This document shows, piece after piece, positions 9,423-23,995 of a stretch of 24,000 bases of DNA. Source of the stretch: Pyrinomonadaceae bacterium (lineage in GTDB: Bacteria > Acidobacteriota > Blastocatellia > Pyrinomonadales > Pyrinomonadaceae). A program made the translations under genes and the position numbers. The stretch spans positions 1 through 24,000 of the forward strand of contig DASUNL010000304.1 in NCBI GenBank assembly GCA_036277175.1. The letters run 5' to 3'. Under the pieces are notes generated by a model. The model searched no databases. It was given only the letters and a program-made list of their open reading frames with translations, and was not told where the DNA came from. Each line of letters starts with the position of its first letter. Position 1 is the stretch's first letter.

Positions 9423-10484
9423 TCAGGACTTCTCTTCGAGGCGCGCTCGCAGCTCGGCGACTTGTCGTCGCAACTCGGTCAGCTCTTCGCGCATCTGCGG
9501 GAGCCGACCGAAGTGCGCGTTCAGACGCTTGTACTCGTCGAGCGGGCGGACGGGCACGCCCCACACGACCGCGCCGGGGCGAACTATCTTGCCCGGAAGT
9601 ATCCCCGCCTTCGAGCCGACAATCGCGCCACGCGAGACGCGCGCGTGGTCGCCCATCCCGACCTGTCCTCCGATGATTGCGTCCGACTCGATGACGGTGC
9701 TCCCCGAGATTCCCGTCTGCGCGGCGATGACGACGCGCTCGCCTATCGAGACGTTGTGCCCGACCTGCACGAGGTTGTCGAGCTTCGTCCCGCGCCCGAT
9801 GCGCGTCTCGCCCAGAGCGCCGCGATCTACGCAACTGCCCGCGCCAATCTCGACGTCCGACTCGATGACGACCGTCCCGATTTGCGGGAACTTGTGATAC
9901 AGCCCTTCAGCGTCGCGCACGTAGCCGAACCCGTCCGCGCCGACGTGTACGCCCGCGTGCAGAATCACGCGGTCGCCCAAGGTCACGTTCTCATAAAGCA
10001 CGACGTTCGGGTGGAGCACGCAGTCCGCGCCGACGCGCGCATTCTCGCCGACCGAAGCGCCCGCGAGAATCTGCGTCCCCGCGCCGACGCGCGCGCCCTC
10101 CGAGACGACGGCGCAAGGGCCGACGTGGACGCCCTCGCCCAACTCCGCGCTCCCGGCGACGCTCGCCGAGGGATGAATTCCGGCCGCGCGCTTGCGCGGA
10201 GGGTGCAGCGCCCCGGCGACGAGCGCGAAGGCGAGCTTCGGCCGCGCCGCCTCGATGGCGCAACGGCCCGCAACGTCCGCGCCTTCGGGGACGATTAAAC
10301 ACGAAGCGCCGCTCGCTCGCGCGCGCTCGAAGAGCTTCGCGTCCTCGACGAACGCGACGTCGCCCTCGCCCGCACCGTCGAGGCTCGCCACACTTCGGAC
10401 GCGCACGTCGCCGTCTCCAACGACGCGCCCGCCGCAAAGTGCGGCCAGCTCGGCGACCGTCATCCCGTTCGTTTGTCTGCTCAT
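9423..10484 (-). CDS. lpxD: UDP-3-O-acylglucosamine N-acyltransferase
   Basis: N-terminal 'TVAELAALCGGRVVGDGDVRVRSVASL'. Hexapeptide left-handed beta-helix repeats. 'GADGFGY', 'KFPQIGTVVIESDVEIGAGSCVDRGALGETRIG' and 'DNLVQVGHNV' match LpxD. C-terminal coiled-coil tail. Confidence 0.9.
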   Translation of the reverse strand: MSRQTNGMTVAELAALCGGRVVGDGDVRVRSVASLDGAGEGDVAFVEDAKLFERARASGASCLIVPEGADVAGRCAIEAARPKLAFALVAGALHPPRKRAAGIHPSASVAGSAELGEGVHVGPCAVVSEGARVGAGTQILAGASVGENARVGADCVLHPNVVLYENVTLGDRVILHAGVHVGADGFGYVRDAEGLYHKFPQIGTVVIESDVEIGAGSCVDRGALGETRIGRGTKLDNLVQVGHNVSIGERVVIAAQTGISGSTVIESDAIIGGQVGMGDHARVSRGAIVGSKAGILPGKIVRPGAVVWGVPVRPLDEYKRLNAHFGRLPQMREELTELRRQVAELRARLEEKS

Positions 10485-10494
10485 CTTTCGCGGC

Positions 10495-10647
10495 TCAGTC
10501 GTCTTCGCGCCGGGCCATAATCTTTCGCACCGAGTGCCACTGTTCTTGGCTGCCGCCGAGTTCCTTCCTGTGCCAGCGCCGGATGAAGAGGGCGAAGCAC
10601 ACGACGACGACCAAGACCATCAGCCCGAAGACGGCCGACAGAAACAT
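10495..10647 (-). CDS. Putative 50-aa single-pass membrane micro-protein between lpxA and lpxD
   Basis: ATG at 10647 lies 8 nt after the lpxA stop, and the stop at 10495 lies 10 nt before the lpxD ATG. 'MFLSAVFGLMVLVVVVCFALFIRRWHRK...' is one TM helix plus a basic tail. GGAGGA lies about 16 nt upstream inside the lpxA 3' end. The rest of the listed 293-aa ORF is an Arg-rich shadow. Confidence 0.45.
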   Translation of the reverse strand: MFLSAVFGLMVLVVVVCFALFIRRWHRKELGGSQEQWHSVRKIMARREDD

Positions 10648-10655
10648 CGAGGCGA

Positions 10656-11483
10656 TCACGTCTCCTCCCCCTCGTCGTTCGCGGCGTCCGCGCTCGGCGC
10701 GTCGCCGGCCCGGCGCTCTACTCCCGTGAAACCGCGTCGTGAGCCGCGTATGAATTCGACGAGGTTCGTGACGTTTTCGTCTTCGAGCGCGAGCAAAGCC
10801 GCGAGCGCGTCGGCGAGCGGCAGTCGTTCGCGGAACAGGAGACCGTAGGCGCGTCGGAGCGCGAGTCGCGCGTCCGGAGAGAAGCCACCGCGCCGGAGTC
10901 CGACGGTGTTGAGTCCGCGCACGCGCGCGGGGTTTCCGTCCGTCGTGAAGAACGGCAAAACGTCCTGCACGATTTTGGACTTGCCGCCGACCATCGCGAA
11001 CCGCCCGAAGCGCGTGAACTGATGCGCGCCGACGTTCGACGCGAGGAAGACGTGGTCGGCGACGCGGACGTGCCCGGCGAGCGCGACGCCGTTGGCGAAG
11101 ACGTTGTCGTCGCCCACCTCGCAGTTGTGCGCGATGTGCGTCGAGACCATCAAGAAGTTTCGGCTCCCGACGCGCGTCACCTCGCCCTCGCCGCGCGCGC
11201 GGTGCAGGGTCGCGTACTCGCGTATCAGGTTGTCGTCGCCTAAGACGAGCGCGCTCGGCTCGCCACGAAACTTCCAGTCCTGCGGCTCGCCGCCCAGACA
11301 GGCGTGCTCGAAGACGCGGTTGCGTCGGCCCAAGGTGGTGAAGCGTTTGACGACGGCGTGCGCTCCTATCTCGCACTCGTCGCCCAACGTCGCGCCCTCT
11401 TCGACGACCGCGTAGGGGCCGACGCGCACGCCGCGTCCGAGCGACGCGCGAGGGTGGACGGCGGCTGTCGGGTGAATCTCCAT
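10656..11483 (-). CDS. lpxA: Acyl-ACP--UDP-N-acetylglucosamine O-acyltransferase
   Basis: 'IHPTAAVHP', 'LGGEPQDWKFRGEPS', 'IREYATLHRA', 'THIAHNCEVGD', 'LAGHV', 'AHQFTRFG', 'GLNTVGLRRGGFS' and 'LRRAY' align block for block with E. coli LpxA. Start at 11483 ('MEIHPTA') is preferred; 11537 is the alternative. Confidence 0.9.
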   Translation of the reverse strand: MEIHPTAAVHPRASLGRGVRVGPYAVVEEGATLGDECEIGAHAVVKRFTTLGRRNRVFEHACLGGEPQDWKFRGEPSALVLGDDNLIREYATLHRARGEGEVTRVGSRNFLMVSTHIAHNCEVGDDNVFANGVALAGHVRVADHVFLASNVGAHQFTRFGRFAMVGGKSKIVQDVLPFFTTDGNPARVRGLNTVGLRRGGFSPDARLALRRAYGLLFRERLPLADALAALLALEDENVTNLVEFIRGSRRGFTGVERRAGDAPSADAANDEGEET

Positions 11484-11625
11484 CTCTCTCAAGACCGCGA
11501 CGGATGGTACATCCTCGGCCGAGGCGGCCGCAAACATTTAGCCATCCGGCCGCGAAGTTGTAGAATCACGGCGTCCCCTTAAAACGAGAATCCGATTTAA
11601 CGTAAACGAGGAGGCTTGGAGGCCG

Positions 11626-11778
11626 ATGGCGGACGAAGCTAAAGAGAGGAAGTGCGCGCACCAGAAGTGTCGCTGCATGGTTGAGGAGCCGAGGCGCTAT
11701 TGCAGCGACCGTTGCGAAGACGAAGCGGACTCAGACCCGACGAGCGACTGCACCTGCGGCCACGCCGGCTGCAAGTAA
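11626..11778 (+). CDS. Bacterial metallothionein, SmtA/BmtA family (50 aa; not in the supplied ORF track)
   Basis: Hand translation: MADEAKERKCAHQKCRCMVEEPRRYCSDRCEDEADSDPTSDCTCGHAGCK. It has 8 Cys and 2 His. The pattern KCA-x3-C-x-C-x-V...YCS-x2-C...C-x-CGH-x-GC parallels Synechococcus SmtA (KCACEPCLCNV...YYCSEAC...GCGHTGC). GAGGAGG (11608-11614) and GGAGG (11618-11622) precede the ATG. Confidence 0.7.
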   Translation: MADEAKERKCAHQKCRCMVEEPRRYCSDRCEDEADSDPTSDCTCGHAGCK

Positions 11779-11872: not shown

Positions 11873-11901
11873 TTGCATCTGCAAGGGTATGCCTTTATCA
11901 T
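11873..11901 (+). promoter_or_regulatory. Near-consensus sigma70 promoter upstream of the radical SAM gene
   Basis: -35 TTGCAT (11873-11878), exactly 17-bp spacer, -10 TATCAT (11896-11901). Located in an AT-enriched 250-bp gap. Flanked and overlapped by the direct repeat TATGCCTTTATC (11859-11870 and 11888-11899) and the palindrome TTGCAtcTGCAA. Confidence 0.55.
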
Positions 11902-12028
11902 GTCGCGTTGCCGGCAATCCTCATCCGGCTTTTCGACAAGGCTTAAGCAGGCGAGCTTTTTCAACGGTTTGCGGGCAAAAACGCAACGGTCGCTCGTCCC
12001 GCGCGTTTCTTTAAGGAGAACCTTTAAC

Positions 12029-13999
12029 TTGTTCAGCGATCAATTCCGCCGGGGCGAGACCGAGCGCGCGCGTTTCAGCGGCGTCAAGACCTCGCGCCTC
12101 ATCTCGAACCTTTCGGACGTGGCGTGGAAGGCTTTTCAGTCCGTCAACAAGCGCCTGCCCGAAGGCGAGGCCATCCGCCCGAAGTGGGCGCCGGGGCCGC
12201 TGCTCAAGTCCTACGAACGCACCGCGCCGCCGCTCGGCTTCCCGCGCGAGACCGACAGTCTGTGCCCGCGCTGCGTCAAGGAAGTCCGCAACGCCGTCAT
12301 CTCCGGCGACGTCTCGCTCGAAACCCTGATGCACACGCATCCGGGCGAAATCAAGGCGCAGATTATTGAGGAAGACGGCAAGGTCTACATGACGAAGACC
12401 TGCCCCGTCCACGGCGAGTTCAAAGACCTGATGGCGACCGACGCGCGCTTTCTTGAGCGCATCGAGTCGCTCTTCTTCGGACGCGACTTCCGCGCCGCCG
12501 AGGACGCGCACATCCACCGCCACGGGACTTCCAACATCAAGTTCGGGCGCGGGGCAGTGTTGACGGTCGACCTCACCAACCGCTGCAACATGATGTGCAA
12601 CCCGTGCTTCATGGACGCCAATCAGGTCGGCTACGTGCATGAGCCGACGTTCGAGGACACGAAGGCGATTCTCGACCGCGCCATCAGCTTCAAGCCGCGA
12701 CGCCAGATAATCATCCTCTTCTCGGGCGGCGAGCCGACGCTGTCGCCCCACTTCCTCGAATCGGTCGCCTACGCGCGCAAGGTCGGCTTCTACCGCATCC
12801 TCGCCGCCACCAACGGCATCCGCTACGCCGAGGACATCGAGTTCTGCAAGGCCGCGAAAGAGGCGGGTCAGCACGGCGTCTATCTTCAGTTCGACGGCGT
12901 GTCTGAAGAGAAGAACAAGCACCGAGGCGTCGGCAACCTCTTCGACGTGAAGCTGCGCGCGATTGAAAACCTCGCCTCGGTCGGCATCAAGGTGACGCTC
13001 GTCACGACCATCGTCAACACCATCAACAACGACGCCATCGGCCAGATAGTCGAGTTCGCCGCGAAGAACATCGACAAGGTTCAGACCATCGCCTTCCAGC
13101 CCGTCTCCTTCACCGGCCGCGACGAGGACGTCGAAGACGACGTGCGCTTGCAGCAGCGTTACACCTTGGCGGGCATGGCCGGCGACCTAGAGTCGCAGTT
13201 GGGCGGACGCATCCGCGCCCTGCGCGACTGGTTCCCGCTCTCGTCCTACTCGGCCTTCACGTCCGTCATGGACATGCTGCAAGGCGCGGACGCGCCGTGG
13301 GGCTGGTCTTCGTGTAACTGCCACCCGAACTGCGGCATCTTCACGCTCTTGGTGACGAATCGCAAAACGGGCGAGTTCCGTTCGCTCTTCGAGTTCTTCG
13401 ACTACGAGCAGTTCATGAAGGACGTCTACGTCATCACCGACTCGGCGCGCGGGCGGAAACTCACGATGGCGCAGCTCGCGATGGCCATCATGCGCAACTT
13501 CGACGCCGAGCGAGCGCCCGAGGGCTTCCCCGTCTCGCAAATCATCAACCTCTTCAAGCCTTCGTCGGCCGACTCGAACTCAGACCGCAACGACCGCATG
13601 AAGGCGCAGGTCGCGGACGACTCGTCGGACTTGTGGCGCGTGCTGTGCGTCGAGGGGATGTGGTTCCAAGACCTCTTCAACTACGACTTCCGCCGCACCG
13701 AGATGTGCGTCATCCCTTACGGGACGCAAGAAGGCGAGATAAGTTTCTGCGCCTACAACACGGGCGTCGGCTGGCGGCAGATTATCGAGGAGATGCACAA
13801 GACGGCGAACCTCGCCGACTGGTACAAGGAGCACGGACGCCACGCCGTCTACGCGAAGGGCCGCGCCGTCCCCGGCATCGAGAAGGCGCGCTCGCTCTCG
13901 CTCCCCATCGTCCAACAGATTCTCGCCGCCGACGACGACACGCCGAAAGTCTCTCCCTACCTCGTCGAAGAGGCCGAGGAAGAGTTAACGGTTCGATAG
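12029..13999 (+). CDS. Large multi-cluster radical SAM enzyme, COG1964 / Tes (GDGT-MAS)-like
   Basis: TTG start at 12029 lies 10 nt after AAGGAG (12013-12018). N-terminal zinc-ribbon/rubredoxin-like 'LCPRC...(EEDGKVYMTKT)CPVHGEF'. Radical SAM 'CNMMCNPC' (CxxxCxxC). SAM-binding 'FSGGEPTL'. C-terminal Cys clusters 'SSCNCHPNCG' and 'MCVIPYG...ISFCAYN'. 656 aa. The listed 772-aa ORF is over-extended across the promoter and the metallothionein gene. Confidence 0.85.
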   Translation: MFSDQFRRGETERARFSGVKTSRLISNLSDVAWKAFQSVNKRLPEGEAIRPKWAPGPLLKSYERTAPPLGFPRETDSLCPRCVKEVRNAVISGDVSLETLMHTHPGEIKAQIIEEDGKVYMTKTCPVHGEFKDLMATDARFLERIESLFFGRDFRAAEDAHIHRHGTSNIKFGRGAVLTVDLTNRCNMMCNPCFMDANQVGYVHEPTFEDTKAILDRAISFKPRRQIIILFSGGEPTLSPHFLESVAYARKVGFYRILAATNGIRYAEDIEFCKAAKEAGQHGVYLQFDGVSEEKNKHRGVGNLFDVKLRAIENLASVGIKVTLVTTIVNTINNDAIGQIVEFAAKNIDKVQTIAFQPVSFTGRDEDVEDDVRLQQRYTLAGMAGDLESQLGGRIRALRDWFPLSSYSAFTSVMDMLQGADAPWGWSSCNCHPNCGIFTLLVTNRKTGEFRSLFEFFDYEQFMKDVYVITDSARGRKLTMAQLAMAIMRNFDAERAPEGFPVSQIINLFKPSSADSNSDRNDRMKAQVADDSSDLWRVLCVEGMWFQDLFNYDFRRTEMCVIPYGTQEGEISFCAYNTGVGWRQIIEEMHKTANLADWYKEHGRHAVYAKGRAVPGIEKARSLSLPIVQQILAADDDTPKVSPYLVEEAEEELTVR

Positions 14000-14000
14000 A

Positions 14001-14043
14001 CGTCGCGGCCGGTCGCCACGCGCTTAGGCGACCGGCCGCGACG
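14001..14043 (+). terminator. Strong stem-loop immediately after the radical SAM stop codon
   Basis: CGTCGCGGCCGGTCGCC-N9-GGCGACCGGCCGCGACG is a 17-bp perfect stem starting 2 nt after the TAG. The downstream sequence is only weakly T-rich (GCTTTTG at about 14053). Confidence 0.65.
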
Positions 14044-14180
14044 CTACTCGTCGCTTTTGAAAACGGCGGGGCCGAGCGCCCGCGCCGCCTCCTTTTTCCA
14101 GCGCGCCCGACCGCGCGACCGTCCCGAAGAAGCTTCAAGACGGCCCCACCAACCCCCACCTAAACAGTAAGGAGCACTTA

Positions 14181-14717
14181 ATGAAGAGACTCAAGCAGAC
14201 GATTCTGCTCGCCGCGCTGGCTGCGCTCTCGATGGCCGCGAGCGCCTCCGCGCAGGAGAATAAAACGGCCGTCGCCCCCGACGCCGAGAAGAACAAGTAT
14301 CAGAACGTCGAGGTCGTGCCCTTCACCGCGCAGGAAGAAGTCAACCTGACGGCGGATGAACTGAAGGTCATCACCGAGACGGTCGTCAAAGAGCTGCGCG
14401 ACATCAAGAAGTTCAAGCAGGTCTTGCGCGAGGGCGAGACGGCGACCGAGGCGGGCGCGCCGACGCTCAAGGTCACCGGCACGGTCGTCAAGTTTAAGAA
14501 GGGCAGCCGCGCCAAGCGTTACTTCGTCGGCTTCGGCGCGGGCAAGACCAAGATGATCGCCAACGTCAAGTTCATCGACGGCGAGAGCGGGCAGGTGCTC
14601 TACGAATACGTGGCCGACGGCGACGTGCACATGGGCATCTTCGGCGGCGACTCGGGCGGCGCGAAGTCGGAGATGGCCGAGCAGGTCGCCAAGTACGCCA
14701 AGAAGAAATTCTTCTAA
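14181..14717 (+). CDS. Secreted Lys-rich protein of unknown function (possibly DUF4410-like)
   Basis: AAGGAG lies 7 nt upstream of the ATG. Signal peptide 'MKRLKQTILLAALAALSMAASASA/QE'. Block 'KFKKGSRAKRYFVGFGAGKTKM...DGESGQVL' is present. 178 aa. The family assignment is from memory only. Confidence 0.75.
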   Translation: MKRLKQTILLAALAALSMAASASAQENKTAVAPDAEKNKYQNVEVVPFTAQEEVNLTADELKVITETVVKELRDIKKFKQVLREGETATEAGAPTLKVTGTVVKFKKGSRAKRYFVGFGAGKTKMIANVKFIDGESGQVLYEYVADGDVHMGIFGGDSGGAKSEMAEQVAKYAKKKFF

Positions 14718-14834: not shown

Positions 14835-15215
14835 TTAGTGGCGCGGCGGGTCGCCCGCTTGTTCGTCGTCGGTCTGTGTGTGTTCGGACGTGTGGAGGGT
14901 CGTCGGCGCGGCGTCCGCGCCCGCGTGGTTGGCGTGTTGGACGACGCGCAGCTCGGCGACCTGATCGCGTATGCGCGCGGCGAGTTGCTCGATGGTCTGG
15001 ACGCGCCGTCGCGCCGAGTCATTCAGAGTCGCGTCGCGCAGGAGCAGTTGCGCCTGACCGATGAGGCCCGTCAGAGGGTTGTTGATCTCGTGGCGGATGC
15101 GCGCGGCGAGGTCGGCGACCTCTTCGAGCCGCGCCTCGTAAGACGCGACCATGCGCCGCAACTCCGCCTCGCCCTCGCGCGCCGTGCCCGCGCCCAAAGT
15201 CTCCTCGCTCATCAT
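14835..15215 (-). CDS. Standalone HisKA (DHp) domain protein with no ATPase domain
   Basis: H-box 'ARIRHEINNPLTGLIGQAQLLL' is flanked by predicted coiled-coil helices. About 126 aa, with no HATPase_c motifs (N, G1, G2). The start is uncertain: ATG-ATG at 15215/15212 directly after GGGAGGG, or GTG at 15242. Confidence 0.65.
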   Translation of the reverse strand: MMSEETLGAGTAREGEAELRRMVASYEARLEEVADLAARIRHEINNPLTGLIGQAQLLLRDATLNDSARRRVQTIEQLAARIRDQVAELRVVQHANHAGADAAPTTLHTSEHTQTDDEQAGDPPRH

Positions 15216-15332
15216 CCCTCCCGCGCCGCCGCCGCCCCGCACACGCCGCCGCCCTTACACGACGACGGCCGCCCCTCACGCAAGTCTCCGTATATTGCGA
15301 CGACGCGCCGTCGCGGGGCAAGAGCCGCGCGG

Positions 15333-18902: not shown

Positions 18903-19676
18903 ATGCTCGATATCGCAGAAATCGCCGCGCGCTATGACACGGACAAGGCCGTCCACACGCACTACCTGCGCAACTACGAGGAGTACTTCGGCCCCTTGCG
19001 CGGGGAGGCGGTGCGTCTCTTTGAGCTGGGCATCAAGGAGGGCGGGTCGCTCCTTCTGTGGCGCGACTACTTCGAGCGCGGCCTCGTCGTCGGCCTCGAC
19101 ATCGAACCCGCGCGGCTCGAAGACGCGACCGGCCGCATACGCACCTATCAGGGCATGCAGCAGGACACGAAGCTACTCGACCGCATCGCGCGCGAGTGCG
19201 CGCCCGAGGGCTTCGACATCATCATCGACGACTGCTCGCACATCGGCGCGCTCACGCGCCTGAGCTTCTGGCACCTCTTCGACCGTCACTTGAAACCCGG
19301 CGGCGTCTACGTCATCGAGGACTGGGGCACGGGCTACTGGGACTCTTGGCTCGACGGCGTCGGCTATCGTCGCGACGCGCAACTCTTCCACCCCAAGCTC
19401 TACCGTCTGACGCGCGCCTTCGCGCGACTCCAACAGAGCGCGGCGCTTCGGCGCGTGCCGCTCGCGGGCCGACTCCTCGCGCGGGCCAAGCGTGCGGTCG
19501 TCGGCCGCCAGTATCGCAGCCACGACTTCGGCATGGTCGGGTTCGTCAAAGAGCTCGTTGACGAGCTCGGCGCGCGCGACATCACGCACCCCCTGCACGG
19601 CGCGCCGCCGCAGCGTTCGTCGAAGTTCCGCGAGCTTCGCGTCTCGCCGAGCCACCTGTTCGTCGTCAAAGCCTAA
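18903..19676 (+). CDS. Class I SAM-dependent methyltransferase ('(G/D)TDK...H-x-Y' family)
   Basis: 'YDTDKAVHTHYLRNYEEYF', 'LFELGIKEGGSLLLWRDYF..GLVVGLDIEP', 'FDIIIDDCSH' and 'LKPGGVYVIED' form the Rossmann methyltransferase motif series. ATG 18903 is preferred over 18804. Confidence 0.7.
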   Translation: MLDIAEIAARYDTDKAVHTHYLRNYEEYFGPLRGEAVRLFELGIKEGGSLLLWRDYFERGLVVGLDIEPARLEDATGRIRTYQGMQQDTKLLDRIARECAPEGFDIIIDDCSHIGALTRLSFWHLFDRHLKPGGVYVIEDWGTGYWDSWLDGVGYRRDAQLFHPKLYRLTRAFARLQQSAALRRVPLAGRLLARAKRAVVGRQYRSHDFGMVGFVKELVDELGARDITHPLHGAPPQRSSKFRELRVSPSHLFVVKA

Positions 19677-22600
19677 GCCGAGTGCGCGGCGGGCTCGGTG
19701 CGCTCAAGCTCCCTGCGCATCCCCAGACGCGCGAAGATTTCCCGCGCCTCGGTGAGCATCTCGCGCCCGCGCTCGGCGTCGCCGCGCCGAAGCTCCGAGC
19801 GCGCCCAGTCGCGCAAGGTGCGCGCGCGCTCGGCCTCCGCGCCCATCAACGTGAAGACGCGCAGGCTCTCGGCGAAACACTCGCGCGCCGTGTAGTCGCG
19901 GCCCTCGACCGTCACCGACGCGCGCCCCAGTCCCGACGCGACGAGGCCGAGCGCGCGCCACGCGCTCGCGATGTAGTCCTGATTCTCGGCCCTCTGTCCC
20001 AAGCTCAATGCGACGAGCGCAGTCTCGCGCGCCTCTTCCACCTTCCCCTGCCCGCGAAAACTCTCTGCCAAGTAACAGTAGATCATCGAGAGCGCGAAGT
20101 GCGCGCCCTCGCCCGCCAGCGTCACGGCCTCGCGCAGATTCGACTCGGCCGCCGCGTACTCTTCGAGTCCTATCTGCGCGCCCGCGAGGTTTCCCAAGCC
20201 GGGCAGCTCGCACGTCCGCTCACCCACCTCGCGAAAGATTGAAAGCGCCTCGGTGTAACGCTCGACCGCGCGCTCGTAGTCGCCCTGCAGGTGCGAGATG
20301 ACGCCGAGGTTGTTGAGCATGAAGCCGATGTTGCGGCGGTCGCCCGACTGGCGCAGTAAATCCAACGACTGCGCGAAGCATTCCTCGGCCTCCTTGAAAC
20401 GCCCCTGCGTCTCGTGCGCCACGCCGAGCAGGCGCAGACCGTTGGCGCGCGCGTGCCGACGGCCTTCGGCCATCGTGTCGCTTAGGTCGAGCAGACGACG
20501 ACCCAAACCCTCGACGCTCGCGGCGTCGCCGAGACGGTGCGAGGCCAGCCCGTGACGGTTGAGCGCGACGGCCTCCTCGGCCTTCGCCGCCGCGTCGTCT
20601 CCGCCCGCGCGCGCAAGTCCTTCGGCCCGCCGCGCGCTCTCAAGGGCCGCGCGGTTGTCGCCCCGATACTCCTGCACGGCCGTCAGCCCGTTCCACGCGC
20701 GCGCCTGCGCGACCACATCGCCCGCCGCCTCGGCACGCTCCAACATCCGCGCGAACGCCTCGACCGCCTCGCCGTAGCGCGCCTGCATCGTCAAGACTTC
20801 GCCGAGTCCGCCGCACCACTTAATCGCCGCCGCCTCGCTCGCGCGGCCGTCGCCTTTAGCCTCCGCGTCGCTCAGGAATTCGAGCGCCTTGCGGTAGAAG
20901 CCGATGGCTGCCTCGGGCGCGTAAGAGGCGCGCGCCTGCGCGCCCGCGCGCCCGTACCACTCCATCGCGCGCGCCGCGTCGCGCGCGCGCTCGTAGTGCT
21001 CGGCGATGACGGCGGCGTACTCCTCTACGCGCCCGCCGCTACGCGCGATGAGCCACCGCGCAGTCTCGCCGTGCAACCGCCGACGCTCGCGCTTCAAAAC
21101 GTTCTCGTAAGCGACGCCGCGCAAAATCGCGTGCTTGAAGATGTACTCGCGCGTCCCCGTAAAGGCCGACGACTCGCGCCGGTAGACGAGCTCCCTCCTT
21201 CGCAAGACTTCGAGCGCCTCGGCCGTGTCGCCCTCCTCGTCGCCCTGACCGCGCTCGGACGAAGCGCGCGAGAACTGTTCGAGCGCGTCCTCCCAGAACT
21301 CGCGCCCGATGACCGACGCGCGTTGAAGAACGACGCGCTCCCAAGGCGTCAGCACGTCGAGACGCGCTTGCAGCACGCCCGTCAAAGTCTGAGGCACGCG
21401 GACTTCGACCAGACGGCTCGCGTCCACGCGCCAGCGGTCGGCCGAAGGCAAAATCACGCGCTGGTCGATGAGCATCTTAATCAACTCCTCGACGTAAAAA
21501 GGATTCCCCTCGGCGGCGCTCACGACCAACTCGCGCAAGGCGTGCGGAATCGACTGCGCGTTACGCAAAATCTCCTCGACAAGCTGCCTGCTCTCGCGCC
21601 GCGTGAGCGGCTGCAAAGTGAGCCGCGCGTGATTCGCCAACCCTTCGCCCCACGCTGGACGACGCTCCAAAAGGTCTGTCCGCGCGAATCCCAAGATGAG
21701 CAGCGGCGCGTCGGCGCAGTCGCGCGCGAGCTGCGCGACGAAGTCGAGCGAGCCGTCGTCGGCCCAATGCAAGTCGTCGAGATAGACGACGGCCGGCGCG
21801 GCGCGCGCGACCTCGCGGAAGAACTGCGCGGCGTAGTGGAAGGCGCGGCCGCGCACCTGCTTGACGTCGTCGAGGATGCCCGCGAGATAAGGGCTCGCCG
21901 AGAAGTCGAGGCCGATGAGGTGGCCGACGAAGTGCGCGCGCGTCAGAGACTCTTCCGACGCGCCGAACAGCTCCGCCATGCCGCGCTCCATCTTCGCGCG
22001 CGCGACGTCCGCCGCGTCGCTCTCCTGCACGCCGAAGCGCGACGAGAAGAGGTCGCGCACGAGCGAATATGGCAGCCCGCGCGTCCACTGGCTCGCGCGC
22101 CCCTGAAAGATGGAGACGCGGTGCGGCAGGAGCTCGACCTCGTTGCTGAACTCGTAAAGCAGACGCGACTTGCCGAGTCCGGCGTCGCCGATGACGGTCA
22201 CGGCCTGAAGCTCCCGGTCTTCGACGACCGTCTCCAGCGCGTCTCTCATCCGCGCGAGCTCGGCCTCGCGTCCGACCATGCGCGTCTCGACGCCCTCGAC
22301 GCCGCGCGTGCGTACGCGGAAGGCGCGCGGCTTGGCGCGCTCGACCGAGTAGGTGCGCACAGGCTCGGCCCGCCCCTTCGCGCCCGGAAGCTCCATCTCG
22401 CGCACGTCGAAGATGCCGCGCACGTGTCGGTAGGTGTCGTGCGAGATGAGAATCGCGCCGACGGGCGCGGCCTGTTCCAGACGGTGCGCGACGTTGACGG
22501 CCGCGCCCGTCGCCGTCAACTCGCCGCGCGCCCCGTCCGCGCTCAGAAGCACCGCGCCCGTGTTGATGCCGACTCGCATTAAAGGCGCGGCGTCACGTTC

Positions 22601-23995
22601 AGGCACGGCCCTCTGCCCTTCGCCGTGCTCTTCTTCGCCCAAGTGCTCGCGTATGAACTCGGCGACCTCGCGCTGCATCCGTAGCGCGGCGCGCACCGCG
22701 TGCTCGGGGTCGTCCTCGCTCGCGCGCAGCGCGCCCCACAACGCCATCACCTCGTTGCCCATGTGGCGGTCGACCGTCCCGCCGAAGTCCATCACGGCCG
22801 CGTCCACGCGATTCCAAAGCCCGCGCATCACTTCGCTAACCTCCTCGGCGTCGAGCGTCTCGGTGAGCGCCGAAAGGCCGTAGAAATCCGCGAATAGCAC
22901 CGTGACCTGTTTGAGCTGTTCGCCCGAAAGTCGCGACGGCGCGCGCGCCTCGCGCGACGATGCGTCCGACTCGCGCATCCGACTCGGCGCGAACGCCGAA
23001 GCCCCCATCCTCTCGCCGCTCGCGTCGCCTTCGCGTCCGCGCGCGCGCCGCAGCTCCGTCTCGAACTCGACGCGCTGCTTGAGCCGTCGCAGGTCAATCC
23101 CCAAGTCCTTGACCGTTTGATAACGCTCCTCGCGGTCTTTGGCGAGCGCCTTCATCACGATGCGCTCAAGCTCGGCGGGCACGTCGGCCGAAGCTTGCGC
23201 GAGCGGCACGGGGTCGCGTTGGAGGACGGCGGCCATCACGTCGCTTGCGGTCGGCCCGTCGAACGGCGCGCGTCCCGCCGTCATCTCGTAGAGGACGACG
23301 CCGAGCGACCAGATGTCGGTGCGCTCGTCCACTTCGAGTCCGCGCGTCTGCTCCGGCGACATGTAGCCGCACGTGCCCATCACCATGCCGGGCCGCGTGT
23401 TGACGAGCGCGCGCGCGAGCGAATCGCTGTCGGACGTGACTCCGCCGTCGCCGCCGTCGCCCTTGGGCTTCGCGAGTCCGAAGTCCAAAACCTTGACGTA
23501 GCCGTCGGGCCTGACCATCAGGTTCTCAGGCTTCACGTCGCGGTGGACGACGCGCGCCGCGTGCGCGGCGGCGAGCGCGGCCGCCGTCTGGATGCCGAGG
23601 TCGAGCACCTCGGACGCGGGGCGCGGGCCTTGTTGCAGACGCTCGCGCAAAGTCTCGCCCTCGACGAACTCCGTGGCGATAAAACGCAAGGGGCCGTCCG
23701 CGCCAATCTCGTAGATGGTCAGGATGTTCGGGTGGTTTAAGGCGGAGGCGGCGCGCGCCTCCTGCTCGAAGCGTTGGACGCGCTCGGCGTCGGTGGTGAA
23801 CGAGGCGGGCAGGAGCTTGAGCGCGACCTTGCGTCCGAGCAAAGTGTCCTGCGCGAGATAGACCTTGCCCATCCCGCCCTCGCCGAGCGTCGAGACGATG
23901 CGGTAAGAGCCGACCGTCTGCCCCGCTTCGAGCGACGACCCGCCGTCGTCGGCCAGCATCATCCGTGCGGCCATCTGCGCGGCCGGGGCGGACAA
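19673..23995 (-). CDS. Multidomain sensor: Ser/Thr protein kinase, class III nucleotidyl cyclase-like domain, AAA_16 (STAND-like) ATPase and TPR array
   Basis: Kinase: 'GEGGMGKVY', 'VALK', 'HRDVKPEN', 'DFG', 'SPE'. Cyclase: 'VTVLFADFYGLS', 'GINTG', 'VNVAHRLE'. Walker A 'GDAGLGKS' (22166-22189), Walker B 'VVYLDDLHWAD'. The C-terminal roughly 450 aa are TPR-like repeats. The listed start is a TTG 5 nt from the window edge; ATG 23974 or a start beyond the window is also possible. Confidence 0.9.
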   Translation of the reverse strand: MSAPAAQMAARMMLADDGGSSLEAGQTVGSYRIVSTLGEGGMGKVYLAQDTLLGRKVALKLLPASFTTDAERVQRFEQEARAASALNHPNILTIYEIGADGPLRFIATEFVEGETLRERLQQGPRPASEVLDLGIQTAAALAAAHAARVVHRDVKPENLMVRPDGYVKVLDFGLAKPKGDGGDGGVTSDSDSLARALVNTRPGMVMGTCGYMSPEQTRGLEVDERTDIWSLGVVLYEMTAGRAPFDGPTASDVMAAVLQRDPVPLAQASADVPAELERIVMKALAKDREERYQTVKDLGIDLRRLKQRVEFETELRRARGREGDASGERMGASAFAPSRMRESDASSREARAPSRLSGEQLKQVTVLFADFYGLSALTETLDAEEVSEVMRGLWNRVDAAVMDFGGTVDRHMGNEVMALWGALRASEDDPEHAVRAALRMQREVAEFIREHLGEEEHGEGQRAVPERDAAPLMRVGINTGAVLLSADGARGELTATGAAVNVAHRLEQAAPVGAILISHDTYRHVRGIFDVREMELPGAKGRAEPVRTYSVERAKPRAFRVRTRGVEGVETRMVGREAELARMRDALETVVEDRELQAVTVIGDAGLGKSRLLYEFSNEVELLPHRVSIFQGRASQWTRGLPYSLVRDLFSSRFGVQESDAADVARAKMERGMAELFGASEESLTRAHFVGHLIGLDFSASPYLAGILDDVKQVRGRAFHYAAQFFREVARAAPAVVYLDDLHWADDGSLDFVAQLARDCADAPLLILGFARTDLLERRPAWGEGLANHARLTLQPLTRRESRQLVEEILRNAQSIPHALRELVVSAAEGNPFYVEELIKMLIDQRVILPSADRWRVDASRLVEVRVPQTLTGVLQARLDVLTPWERVVLQRASVIGREFWEDALEQFSRASSERGQGDEEGDTAEALEVLRRRELVYRRESSAFTGTREYIFKHAILRGVAYENVLKRERRRLHGETARWLIARSGGRVEEYAAVIAEHYERARDAARAMEWYGRAGAQARASYAPEAAIGFYRKALEFLSDAEAKGDGRASEAAAIKWCGGLGEVLTMQARYGEAVEAFARMLERAEAAGDVVAQARAWNGLTAVQEYRGDNRAALESARRAEGLARAGGDDAAAKAEEAVALNRHGLASHRLGDAASVEGLGRRLLDLSDTMAEGRRHARANGLRLLGVAHETQGRFKEAEECFAQSLDLLRQSGDRRNIGFMLNNLGVISHLQGDYERAVERYTEALSIFREVGERTCELPGLGNLAGAQIGLEEYAAAESNLREAVTLAGEGAHFALSMIYCYLAESFRGQGKVEEARETALVALSLGQRAENQDYIASAWRALGLVASGLGRASVTVEGRDYTARECFAESLRVFTLMGAEAERARTLRDWARSELRRGDAERGREMLTEAREIFARLGMRRELERTEPAAHSA

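What the first reader, a model, noticed from the sequence alone, without database searches (positions are those of the whole stretch)
12029..13999. Tes/GDGT-MAS-like radical SAM enzyme in a diderm bacterium: candidate membrane-spanning (brGDGT-type) lipid synthase
Seen in the sequence:
- A 656-aa protein with an N-terminal C-P-x-C ... C-P-x-H metal-ribbon ('LCPRC' ... 'EEDGKVYMTKTCPVHGEF').
- A canonical radical SAM CxxxCxxC motif ('CNMMCNPC') and a GGE SAM-binding motif ('SGGEPTL').
- A long C-terminal domain with two further Cys clusters ('SSCNCHPNCG' and 'CVIPYG..FCAYN'), consistent with auxiliary Fe-S clusters.

Established knowledge: this layout is that of the COG1964 radical SAM family. 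That family includes the archaeal tetraether lipid synthase Tes / GDGT-MAS (M. acetivorans MA_1486, M. jannaschii MJ0619), which makes C-C bonds between lipid tails. Bacterial Tes homologues have been proposed, but to my knowledge not demonstrated, as the missing enzyme for bacterial branched GDGT or diabolic-acid-type membrane-spanning lipids.

Inference:
- This gene is such a bacterial homologue.
- It lies 0.5 kb from the lipid A acyltransferase operon (lpxA/lpxD).
- It has its own strong promoter, a long leader, a strong terminator and an upstream metallothionein gene.

The family assignment is from motif memory, not a search.
Basis: partly seen in the sequence, partly recalled or inferred. 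Interest (0 to 1): 0.8.

Follow-up and report, generated by a model that had tools for sequence, protein, structure and literature searches.

The report
Acidobacterial Tes-like lipid radical SAM enzyme
This gene from a soil acidobacterium (family Pyrinomonadaceae) encodes a real but divergent relative of the archaeal enzyme that welds two lipid tails together. It is a reasonable, already published and still unproven candidate for making the bacterium's membrane-spanning iso-diabolic-acid lipids.

Summary

The family call is right at the homology level:
- The best solved structure is GDGT-MAS/Tes (7TOL, E 1e-69).
- An AlphaFold model superposes on it over its full length (TM 0.86-0.87).
- The best NCBIfam model is Tes, but at 320 bits it falls below the 450-bit equivalog cutoff.

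It is not a strict Tes. It belongs to an Acidobacteria-wide clade that I call type B, found in Pyrinomonadaceae, Vicinamibacterales and Bryobacteraceae. Type B keeps the rubredoxin-like site, the radical SAM cluster and the catalytic C-terminal [4Fe-4S] site (3 Cys, Met, Tyr). [quoted passage not shown] It has gained a ribbon insertion and N- and C-terminal extensions.

The most likely function is tail-to-tail coupling of iso-C15 chains, giving iso-diabolic-acid lipids. Pyrinomonadaceae make these lipids; brGDGTs themselves were not detected in subdivision 4 cultures.

The hypothesis was published in 2022 and I found no enzymatic proof. The lpxA/lpxD adjacency is confined to this family. The 'metallothionein' ORF is only a weak match and is not conserved in related loci. 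Interest is moderate.

The parts
12029..13999 (+). Gene for the 656-aa Tes-like radical SAM protein ('type B'); TTG start, TAG stop
12029..12259 (+). N-terminal extension (aa 1-77), absent from MJ0619. It holds an amphipathic helix (aa 19-42) and the conserved motif W33...P51-x-W53...PLLKSYE..PPLGFPRETDS.
   Evidence: (W33, P51, W53, L58, R64, G70, P72, R73 at least 90% conserved)
12260..12421 (+). Rubredoxin-like metal ribbon C79-x2-C82-x42-C125-x2-H128. It carries an insertion of about 22 aa relative to C9x2C12x20C33x2H36 of GDGT-MAS.
   Evidence: PMC9433317
12476..12556 (+). Segment (aa 150-176) that replaces the [4Fe-4S]N domain. The C73/C77/C80/His positions of MJ0619 are H161/H165/S168/K171 here (sequence AHIHRHGTSNIK).
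   Evidence: H165 conserved in 244 of 249 type B proteins
12557..13153 (+). Radical SAM core. It contains C186-x3-C190-x2-C193, the GGE motif at 233-235, and the active-site loop FQPVSFTGR (356-364), which is identical to that of MJ0619.
13211..13834 (+). C-terminal auxiliary-cluster and lipid-pocket domain. C435, C560, C574, M544 (MJ Met439) and Y564 (MJ Tyr459) are retained. C429 and C431 are additional clade-conserved Cys.
   Evidence: PMC9433317
13835..13996 (+). C-terminal extension (aa 603-656). The conserved stretch HGRHAVYAxGxxVP is followed by a low-confidence acidic tail.
11873..11901 (+). Promoter-like site TTGCAT-17 nt-TATCAT. It is conserved as CTTGCCTTT...TATCATG in related Pyrinomonadaceae loci.
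   Evidence: The consensus scan did not call it (8 of 12 matches).
11908..12028 (+). Inferred 5' leader of about 120 nt, with a GC-rich hairpin and the SD AAGGAGA at 12013-12019. No Rfam family matches and no consensus structure was found.
14001..14097 (+). Terminator region. A perfect 17-bp GC hairpin lies at 14001-14043. A second hairpin at 14065-14089 is followed by T5 at 14093-14097.
   Evidence: z = -4.85. The pattern scan listed no + strand terminator here.
10656..11537 (-). lpxA, divergent neighbour (context only)
   Evidence: 315 bits, cutoff 226; synteny in 66 of 80 loci
9423..10484 (-). lpxD (context only)
   Evidence: 308 bits, cutoff 242.5; synteny in 64 of 80 loci
11626..11778 (+). 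50-aa ORF with 8 Cys. It is weakly like a prokaryotic metallothionein and is not a conserved neighbour.

Best explanation
The gene encodes a cytoplasmic, peripherally membrane-associated radical SAM enzyme of the Tes/GDGT-MAS fold. I propose that it joins the terminal (omega) methyl carbons of two iso-branched C15 chains that are already bound to glycerolipids. The product would be the 13,16-dimethyl-C28 (iso-diabolic) chain of this family's membrane-spanning lipids.

Inferred mechanism, by homology to GDGT-MAS:
1. The CxxxCxxC cluster cleaves SAM to give 5'-deoxyadenosyl radical, which abstracts an H atom from a terminal methyl.
2. The lipid radical is parked as a C-S bond on the C-terminal [4Fe-4S] cluster (ligands C435, C560, C574 and labile M544, with Y564 nearby).
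3. A second SAM activates the second tail, which attacks that carbon and forms the C-C bond.

The N-terminal auxiliary [4Fe-4S] cluster of the archaeal enzyme is absent. Electron delivery would therefore run through the enlarged rubredoxin-like site, or directly from a partner protein. Ether bonds, where present, would be made by other enzymes.

What is shown: homology, retained catalytic ligands, predicted fold and phyletic distribution. What is inferred: the substrate, the product and each chemical step.
For: **Homology and fold**
- PDB search: 7TOL GDGT-MAS at E 1e-69 over query residues 108-602. The next hit, SkfB, is at 4e-8 and covers the core only.
- The best NCBIfam model is Tes at 320 bits, ahead of TrsS at 210.
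- The AF2 model has pLDDT 84.8 and pTM 0.87.
- It matches 7TOM/7TOL at E 4e-39 with target TM 0.86-0.87. The next hit, MoaA, is at 1.6e-9.

**Catalytic residues retained**
- The RS triad, the three [4Fe-4S]C Cys, Met439 and Tyr459 equivalents are all present. The last two are reported as fully conserved in 1000 archaeal homologues (PMC9433317).
- M544 and Y564 are conserved in 249 of 249 type B proteins.
- The loop FQPVSFTGR, which closes over 5'-dA in MJ0619, is identical.

**Substrate logic (literature).** Iso-C15 tails end in the same isopropyl group as phytanyl tails (Zeng 2022). GDGT-MAS also binds ester-linked E. coli phospholipids (PMC13274423).

**Phyletic fit**
- Type B occurs in Pyrinomonadaceae (SD4; at least 572 species-level genome hits), Vicinamibacterales (SD6) and Bryobacteraceae (SD3).
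- Iso-diabolic acid is reported in SD1, 3, 4 and 6.
- The Pyrinomonadaceae type strain has 40.8% iso-C15:0, plus iso-diabolic acid and its ethers.
- No homologue of Mss, the other known coupling enzyme, was found in Acidobacteria.

**Signs of an expressed, selected gene.** Protein identity is 82-95% across 80 species-level loci, and the promoter, SD and start codon are conserved.
Against: - No experiment on any bacterial Tes homologue was found. One distant homologue from T. ethanolicus (24% identity) made no membrane-spanning lipid in E. coli.
- Sahonero-Canavesi et al. found Tes homologues in only 3 of 14 iso-diabolic-acid-producing acidobacteria, and concluded that an alternative pathway may exist.
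- My own search agrees for subdivision 1. Relatives of the Terriglobus roseus copy were few (793 hits). Of the few hits that carried an organism name, the only cultured strain was T. roseus itself.
- Those relatives have lost the C-terminal cluster ligands (type C). The T. roseus copy sits in a conjugative element.
- The query scores below the Tes equivalog cutoff and lacks one of the four metallocofactors.
- No lipid-biosynthesis gene is a conserved neighbour outside the family.
- The hosts are obligate aerobes. This is not disqualifying for radical SAM enzymes, but the proven bacterial coupling enzyme Mss worked only anaerobically.
Confidence: 0.5

Rival explanations
1. It is a Tes-fold radical SAM enzyme that performs related radical chemistry on a different hydrophobic substrate. 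Examples would be cross-linking, cyclising or otherwise modifying alkyl chains of other envelope lipids (lipid A acyl chains, hopanoid or carotenoid side chains, ornithine or other aminolipids). On this view it is not the iso-diabolic-acid synthase.
For: - It falls below the Tes equivalog cutoff.
- It has a different cofactor set and clade-specific N- and C-terminal extensions.
- Divergent lpxA-lpxD adjacency is conserved in 66 of 80 Pyrinomonadaceae loci.
- Many iso-diabolic-acid producers reportedly lack Tes homologues.
- The family contains derived members with no catalytic auxiliary cluster (type C), so functions within it have shifted.
Against: - All residues tied to the C-C coupling chemistry are kept and are 100% conserved in type B.
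- The lpxA/lpxD adjacency vanishes in other orders.
- No alternative substrate is suggested by any conserved neighbour.
Confidence: 0.28
2. This is the reader's strong version: the enzyme is the brGDGT synthase proper, condensing two iso-C15 diether lipids into branched tetraethers, as archaeal Tes does with archaeol.
For: - The diether-condensation pathway was proposed for S. usitatus, which has two Tes homologues.
- The 714-aa, 30%-identity copy (Acid_2410) is probably type B. I infer this from its length and from Bryobacteraceae relatives.
- Tes acts on ether lipids.
Against: - brGDGTs were not detected in SD4 cultures, although iso-diabolic acid and its monoether are abundant.
- S. usitatus also has an archaeal-like type A copy (545 aa, 40% identity) that could be the tetraether enzyme.
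- As cited in PMC13023045, K. versatilis with a Tes homologue alone makes tetraesters, not tetraethers.
Confidence: 0.1
3. It is a non-lipid radical SAM maturase (peptide or cofactor), or the '7,8-dihydro-6-hydroxymethylpterin dimethyltransferase' that many JGI records call it.
For: - JGI annotations of homologues use that name.
- The RS core gives weak hits to NirJ, AhbC, PqqE and SkfB models.
Against: - The pterin methyltransferase assignment of MJ0619 could not be reproduced, and was replaced by the lipid synthase function (PMC9433317).
- The SPASM-type hits cover only residues 176-378, whereas the Tes match covers the whole protein.
- No precursor peptide or cofactor genes are conserved nearby.
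Confidence: 0.04

Closest known systems
Archaeal tetraether synthase Tes / GDGT-MAS (MJ0619, PDB 7TOL/7TOM; MA_1486)
   Same: - Same domain order and predicted fold (TM 0.86-0.87, 30% identity).
- Rubredoxin-like C-C-C-H site.
- CxxxCxxC radical SAM cluster.
- C-terminal [4Fe-4S] ligands plus the Met439 and Tyr459 equivalents.
- Identical FQPVSFTGR active-site loop.
   Different: - No C73/C77/C80 triad, so no [4Fe-4S]N cluster.
- A ~22-aa insertion in the ribbon.
- A 77-aa N-terminal and a ~55-aa C-terminal extension.
- An extra conserved Cys (C429).
- 320 bits against the 450-bit equivalog cutoff.
- The host is a bacterium with ester-linked iso-fatty-acid lipids, not isoprenoid ethers.
Archaeal-like ('type A') bacterial Tes homologues, e.g. 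S. usitatus Acid_5929 (545 aa, 40% identity to MA_1486) and the K. versatilis homologue
   Same: Same family and the same proposed role in bacterial membrane-spanning lipids.
   Different: - Type A representatives keep the CPxxCGxC...H motif and the short ribbon.
- They group with MJ0619 in the NJ tree, apart from the query's clade.
- Assigning the named S. usitatus and K. versatilis proteins to type A is my inference from their length and identity. I did not have their sequences.
Type C acidobacterial relatives (e.g. Terriglobus roseus WP_014786616.1)
   Same: Sister or nested lineage at 41-48% identity. They share the N-terminal extension, the ribbon insertion and the loss of [4Fe-4S]N.
   Different: - Type C has also lost the C-terminal cluster Cys, and Tyr is replaced by Val.
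- The T. roseus copy lies between a relaxase, a coupling protein and integrases.
- These proteins probably cannot carry out Tes chemistry.
Bacterial membrane-spanning lipid synthase Mss (Thermotoga maritima, Thermoanaerobacter ethanolicus)
   Same: A radical SAM enzyme shown to couple two fatty-acyl tails into diabolic or iso-diabolic acids. This is the same reaction class that I propose here.
   Different: - It is a different radical SAM family and works only under anaerobic conditions.
- No homologues were detected in Acidobacteria.
- I could not compare sequences directly, because no Mss sequence was available to the tools.

Membership tests
Tes / GDGT-MAS (NCBIfam NF045702 equivalog; PDB 7TOL) | Whole-protein score at or above the curated equivalog cutoff (450 bits) | tested here: not met
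   320.2 bits over residues 75-591. It is the best family but falls below the cutoff.
Tes / GDGT-MAS | Full-length fold: rubredoxin domain, RS core and C-terminal cluster/lipid domain | tested here: met
   The AF2 model (pLDDT 84.8) matches 7TOM/7TOL at E 4e-39 with target TM 0.86-0.87. phmmer gives 1e-69 over residues 108-602.
Tes / GDGT-MAS | Mononuclear rubredoxin-like site Cx2C...Cx2H | tested here: met
   C79, C82, C125 and H128 are present, and Pfam Zn_ribbon_HMPTM scores 6e-17. The spacer is 42 residues rather than 20.
Tes / GDGT-MAS | N-terminal auxiliary [4Fe-4S] cluster ligated by C73, C77, C80 and a His | tested here: not met
   The aligned positions are H161, H165, S168 and K171, and no Cys lies between residues 126 and 185. 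The same is true in all 249 type B proteins.
Tes / GDGT-MAS | Radical SAM CxxxCxxC cluster and SAM-binding motifs | tested here: met
   C186/C190/C193, GGE at 233-235, and Radical_SAM at 2e-22.
Tes / GDGT-MAS | C-terminal [4Fe-4S] cluster with three Cys, the labile Met439 and the conserved Tyr459 | tested here: met
   C435, C560, C574, M544 and Y564 align to the MJ0619 residues. Met and Tyr are conserved in 249 of 249 type B proteins (PMC9433317). The spatial clustering of these residues was not checked, because no model coordinates were available.
Tes / GDGT-MAS | Catalyses Csp3-Csp3 coupling of two lipid tail termini | not testable with these tools
   This needs enzymology or genetics. No such data for a bacterial homologue were found in the literature library.
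Mss (bacterial membrane-spanning lipid synthase) | Sequence homology to the T. maritima or T. ethanolicus Mss | not tested
   No Mss sequence was obtainable. The literature reports no mss homologues in Acidobacteria.
TrsS radical SAM (seleno)protein (NF045646) | Score at or above 490 bits | tested here: not met
   210 bits in two stretches, second to Tes.
Prokaryotic metallothionein (PF02069), for the upstream 50-aa ORF | Pfam gathering score of 33 bits | tested here: not met
   16.2 bits, E 0.012, although the match covers profile positions 3-50 of 51. The ORF is 35% identical to an SmtA sequence that I recalled from memory.

The most novel reading that the evidence does not exclude
Type B is the long-sought oxygen-compatible tail-coupling enzyme of Acidobacteria. 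It would be a streamlined Tes that works without the N-terminal auxiliary cluster and makes iso-diabolic-acid lipids in subdivisions 3, 4 and 6. Its sequence signature (xHxHG in place of CPxxCGxC, plus CxCHPxCG) could then serve as a marker gene. That marker would separate iso-diabolic-acid/brGDGT-precursor producers from carriers of archaeal-like type A and of the inactive-looking type C.
Probability: 0.4. Interest if true: 0.7.

Novelty: new variant of a known kind. Interest (0 to 1): 0.4.

Why it matters
brGDGTs and iso-diabolic-acid lipids underpin widely used palaeotemperature and pH proxies. The enzymes and source organisms behind them are still unsettled.

This window does not open that question. 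Acidobacterial Tes homologues have been candidates since 2022.

The comparison does sharpen it, because 'bacterial Tes homologue' turns out to cover three architectures:
- type A, archaeal-like;
- type B, which lacks the N-terminal cluster;
- type C, which lacks both auxiliary clusters.

Metagenomic surveys that count every Tes hit as brGDGT potential are probably mixing active, differently active and inactive enzymes. Testing one type B enzyme would show whether Blastocatellia, Vicinamibacteria and Bryobacteraceae belong among the sources of these lipids.

Tried and rejected
- **Longer reading frame.** The 772-aa frame from 11681 was rejected. The TTG start, M-F-S and the SD are conserved in 78 loci.
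- **Riboswitch or structured leader.** Rfam gave only a meaningless miRNA hit. RNAalifold on 25 leaders found no consensus pairs. Individual GC hairpins exist, but I could not show covariation.
- **lpxA/lpxD as a functional link.** The adjacency is conserved only within the family. It is absent in L086, L088, L089 and L090.
- **Conserved operon partner.** Downstream genes vary. The window has a DUF4410 protein (found in 3 of 80 loci). At least 45 related loci instead carry a secreted protein of about 290 aa, and 10 carry a second radical SAM protein.
- **Metallothionein as partner.** It is not present in any of the 80 loci.
- **AlphaFold-database fold search.** I wanted it for an organism census, but the library was unavailable.
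- **Supplementary tables listing which acidobacteria carry Tes.** These were not held for Sahonero-Canavesi 2022 and were uninformative for Zeng 2022.
- **Lipid papers.** The original subdivision 1/3 and subdivision 4 lipid papers are not held.
- **Direct comparison with Mss, MA_1486, Acid_2410 or the Koribacter protein.** No route to those sequences was available.
- **Pterin methyltransferase annotation.** Rejected on the literature.
Full report
**1. Observation**

Window 12029-13999 (+) is a genuine gene. It has a TTG start and an AAGGAGA Shine-Dalgarno sequence ending 9 nt upstream, and it encodes 656 aa. GC3 is 0.89, against 0.58 for the overlapping antisense ORF. The start codon, the first residues M-F-S and the SD are conserved in 78 related loci. 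The mechanically longer 772-aa frame is therefore not used.

Pfam finds the HMPTM/Tes N-terminal zinc ribbon (6e-17) and a radical SAM domain (2e-22).

**2. Organism and neighbours**

All close homologues (82-95% identity) come from Pyrinomonadaceae/Blastocatellia metagenome-assembled genomes, that is, Acidobacteriota subdivision 4. More than 572 species-level genomes gave a confirmed hit.

The neighbours are:
- a kynurenine-pathway set, an ABC exporter, a benzoate-CoA-ligase-family enzyme and a PEP-CTERM protein;
- lpxD and lpxA on the opposite strand, both above NCBIfam cutoffs;
- a 50-aa Cys-rich ORF;
- the gene itself;
- a DUF4410 lipoprotein-like ORF;
- a HisKA-only ORF and an AraC regulator.

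**3. Family assignment**

- The best NCBIfam model is tetraether lipid synthase Tes: 320 bits over residues 75-591. This is below the 450-bit equivalog cutoff. TrsS is second at 210 bits.
- The best solved structure is GDGT-MAS (MJ0619, 7TOL) at E 1e-69 over residues 108-602. The next hits (SkfB, PqqE) cover only the radical SAM core.
- An AlphaFold2 model built on 141 sequences has pLDDT 84.8 and pTM 0.87.
- The model matches 7TOM/7TOL at E 4e-39 with target-normalised TM 0.86-0.87. The next best hit is MoaA at 1.6e-9.

That condition is not met, so the homology claim stands.

**4. How it differs from Tes**

According to the GDGT-MAS paper (PMC9433317), that enzyme has four metal sites:
- a rubredoxin-like iron (C9x2C12x20C33x2H36);
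- an N-terminal [4Fe-4S] cluster (C73, C77, C80 and a His);
- the radical SAM cluster;
- a C-terminal [4Fe-4S] cluster with labile Met439. This cluster carries the C-S intermediate. Met439 and Tyr459 are fully conserved in 1000 archaeal homologues.

In the query:
- The rubredoxin site is kept (C79, C82, C125, H128), but with a 42-residue spacer.
- The radical SAM triad is kept (C186, C190, C193).
- The C-terminal site is kept (C435, C560, C574, M544, Y564).
- The active-site loop FQPVSFTGR is identical to that of MJ0619.
- The N-terminal cluster triad is gone. The aligned residues are H161, H165, S168 and K171, and there is no Cys at all between residues 126 and 185.
- There is a 77-residue N-terminal extension with an amphipathic helix (19-42) and a conserved motif.
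- There is a C-terminal extension of about 55 residues.
- C429 is an extra conserved Cys.
- No transmembrane helix is predicted.

By homology they form one.

**5. Three architectures within the family**

I classified 413 full-length homologues from three searches by these ligand columns.

| Type | Number | Architecture | Where found |
|---|---|---|---|
| A | 31 | All four metal sites | Includes MJ0619 |
| B | 249 | Query architecture: no N-terminal cluster | All Pyrinomonadaceae sequences; a very large lineage at about 49% identity |
| C | 129 | Also lacks the C-terminal cluster Cys; Tyr replaced by Val | Terriglobus roseus and subdivision 1 MAGs |

- In type B, M544 and Y564 are conserved in 249 of 249 sequences and H165 in 244 of 249.
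- The named members of the ~49% type B lineage are Vicinamibacterales (SD6), Bryobacteraceae (SD3) and unclassified Acidobacteriota.
- In a neighbour-joining tree, B and C together form one clade apart from A, with C derived inside it.
- The T. roseus copy sits between a TrwC relaxase, a TraG-type coupling protein and two integrases, so it is cargo of a mobile element.

S. usitatus is the best brGDGT producer in culture. It has two homologues: Acid_5929 (545 aa, 40.2% identity to MA_1486) and Acid_2410 (714 aa, 30.1%) (Halamka supplement). From length and identity I infer that these are type A and type B respectively. I could not fetch the sequences to check this.

**6. Gene context**

- Divergent lpxA-lpxD lies immediately upstream in 66 of 80 Pyrinomonadaceae loci. 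A HisKA-only ORF lies downstream in 60 of 80.
- Type B genes in other lineages have unrelated neighbours and no lpx genes (L086, L088, L089, L090).
- The gene behaves as a single-gene transcription unit. A promoter-like CTTGCCTTT...TATCATG is conserved upstream, with TATCAT/TATAAT found in 67 of 78 loci. The leader has a median length of 122 nt.
- In the window, two strong hairpins follow the stop codon.
- The leader has no Rfam match and no detectable consensus structure.
- The upstream Cys-rich ORF gives only a sub-threshold match to prokaryotic metallothionein. It is absent from all 80 related loci.

**7. Function**

The most economical reading is Tes-type tail-to-tail coupling of iso-C15 chains, giving iso-diabolic-acid lipids.

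For:
- The catalytic apparatus for that chemistry is intact and under strict conservation.
- An iso-C15 tail ends like a phytanyl tail.
- GDGT-MAS also binds ester phospholipids.
- Pyrinomonas methylaliphatogenes has 40.8% iso-C15:0, and more than 40% of its lipids are membrane-spanning or ether lipids, including iso-diabolic acid.
- Type B occurs in three of the four subdivisions that make iso-diabolic acid.
- Acidobacteria lack Mss.

Against:
- No bacterial Tes homologue has been shown to work.
- One distant homologue failed in E. coli.
- Only 3 of 14 iso-diabolic-acid-producing acidobacteria had a Tes homologue under stringent criteria.
- Subdivision 1 carries mostly the crippled type C, and only sporadically.
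- The enzyme lacks one cofactor of the archaeal prototype.

brGDGTs themselves were not detected in subdivision 4 cultures. 'brGDGT synthase' therefore overstates the case. Ether formation would need separate enzymes.

I put the iso-diabolic-acid coupling function at about 0.5 and a different lipid substrate at about 0.28. Direct tetraether synthesis gets about 0.1 and non-lipid functions about 0.04.

**8. Novelty and score**

Tes homologues in Acidobacteria, and their proposed role in branched membrane-spanning lipids, were published in 2022 and have been reused since. The finding is therefore not a discovery.

What I did not find described in the papers I could read is the split into three cofactor architectures, with the query in a well-conserved clade that lacks the N-terminal cluster. 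It fails two tested membership criteria for Tes proper (the equivalog score and the [4Fe-4S]N ligands). I therefore file it as a variant of a known kind rather than a member.

Interest is 0.4. It is useful for an active open question but not surprising to a specialist, and the window itself adds no new route to a test.

Noticed in passing
L081/L082 8001-9875 (Terriglobus roseus WP_014786616.1 and flanks): The T. roseus Tes-like gene (type C, with the C-terminal cluster Cys lost) lies between a TrwC relaxase, a TraG/TrwB coupling protein, a NikA-like protein and two tyrosine integrases. It is therefore cargo of an integrative conjugative element.
   Followed up: partly
L085 13356-14357; also L029, L031, L032, L037, L045, L046, L049, L053, L080: A second, uncharacterised 333-aa radical SAM protein lies just downstream of the Tes-like gene in about 10 of 80 Pyrinomonadaceae loci. 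It carries CNLRCEHC and a C-terminal CxxCxC motif, and no family model reaches its cutoff. It is absent from the window.
   Followed up: partly
L085 12324-13196 and at least 45 other loci, immediately downstream of the Tes-like gene: A secreted protein of about 290 aa with a signal peptide and no Pfam or NCBIfam family commonly follows the gene. The window carries a 178-aa DUF4410 protein (14181-14717) at this position instead.
   Followed up: partly
window 14835-15242 (-): A 135-aa ORF consisting only of a HisKA (DHp) phospho-acceptor domain, with no ATPase domain. It is conserved convergently downstream of the Tes-like gene in 60 of 80 loci.
   Followed up: no
window 11626-11778 (+): A 50-aa ORF with 8 Cys and 2 His and its own GGAGG SD. 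It has a sub-threshold but nearly full-length match to prokaryotic metallothionein PF02069 (E 0.012). It looks like an insertion specific to this genome, widening the lpxA-tes gap to 491 bp against the usual 165-370 bp.
   Followed up: yes
window 11908-12028 and the equivalent leaders of L001-L080: The ~120-nt leader usually holds a GC-rich hairpin just 5' of the SD (for example GCGCGCGCC...GCGCGC). Its sequence varies between loci. RNAalifold found no consensus because the alignment is poor, so covariation is untested.
   Followed up: partly
window 9423-11537 (-): lpxA is followed directly by lpxD, with no fabZ between them and a 171-nt gap. LpxA has an N-terminal extension of about 17 residues relative to the model.
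   Followed up: no
P0122 (561 aa, 61% identical): A close relative in which the CxxxCxxC motif is destroyed and the C-terminus is truncated. It is probably a pseudogene or an assembly frameshift.
   Followed up: no
L085 1-939, 16882-18012 and 19085-19993: In a 5.19-Mb Pyrinomonadaceae contig, the wider neighbourhood also holds lpxB, an MGDG-synthase-type glycosyltransferase and a DAGK_cat lipid kinase. This is a loose clustering of envelope-lipid genes and was not seen in the window.
   Followed up: no
window 19673-23995 (-): A very large ORF (more than 1440 aa, running off the window end) combines a Ser/Thr kinase, an adenylate/guanylate cyclase, an AAA_16 ATPase and TPR domains.
   Followed up: no
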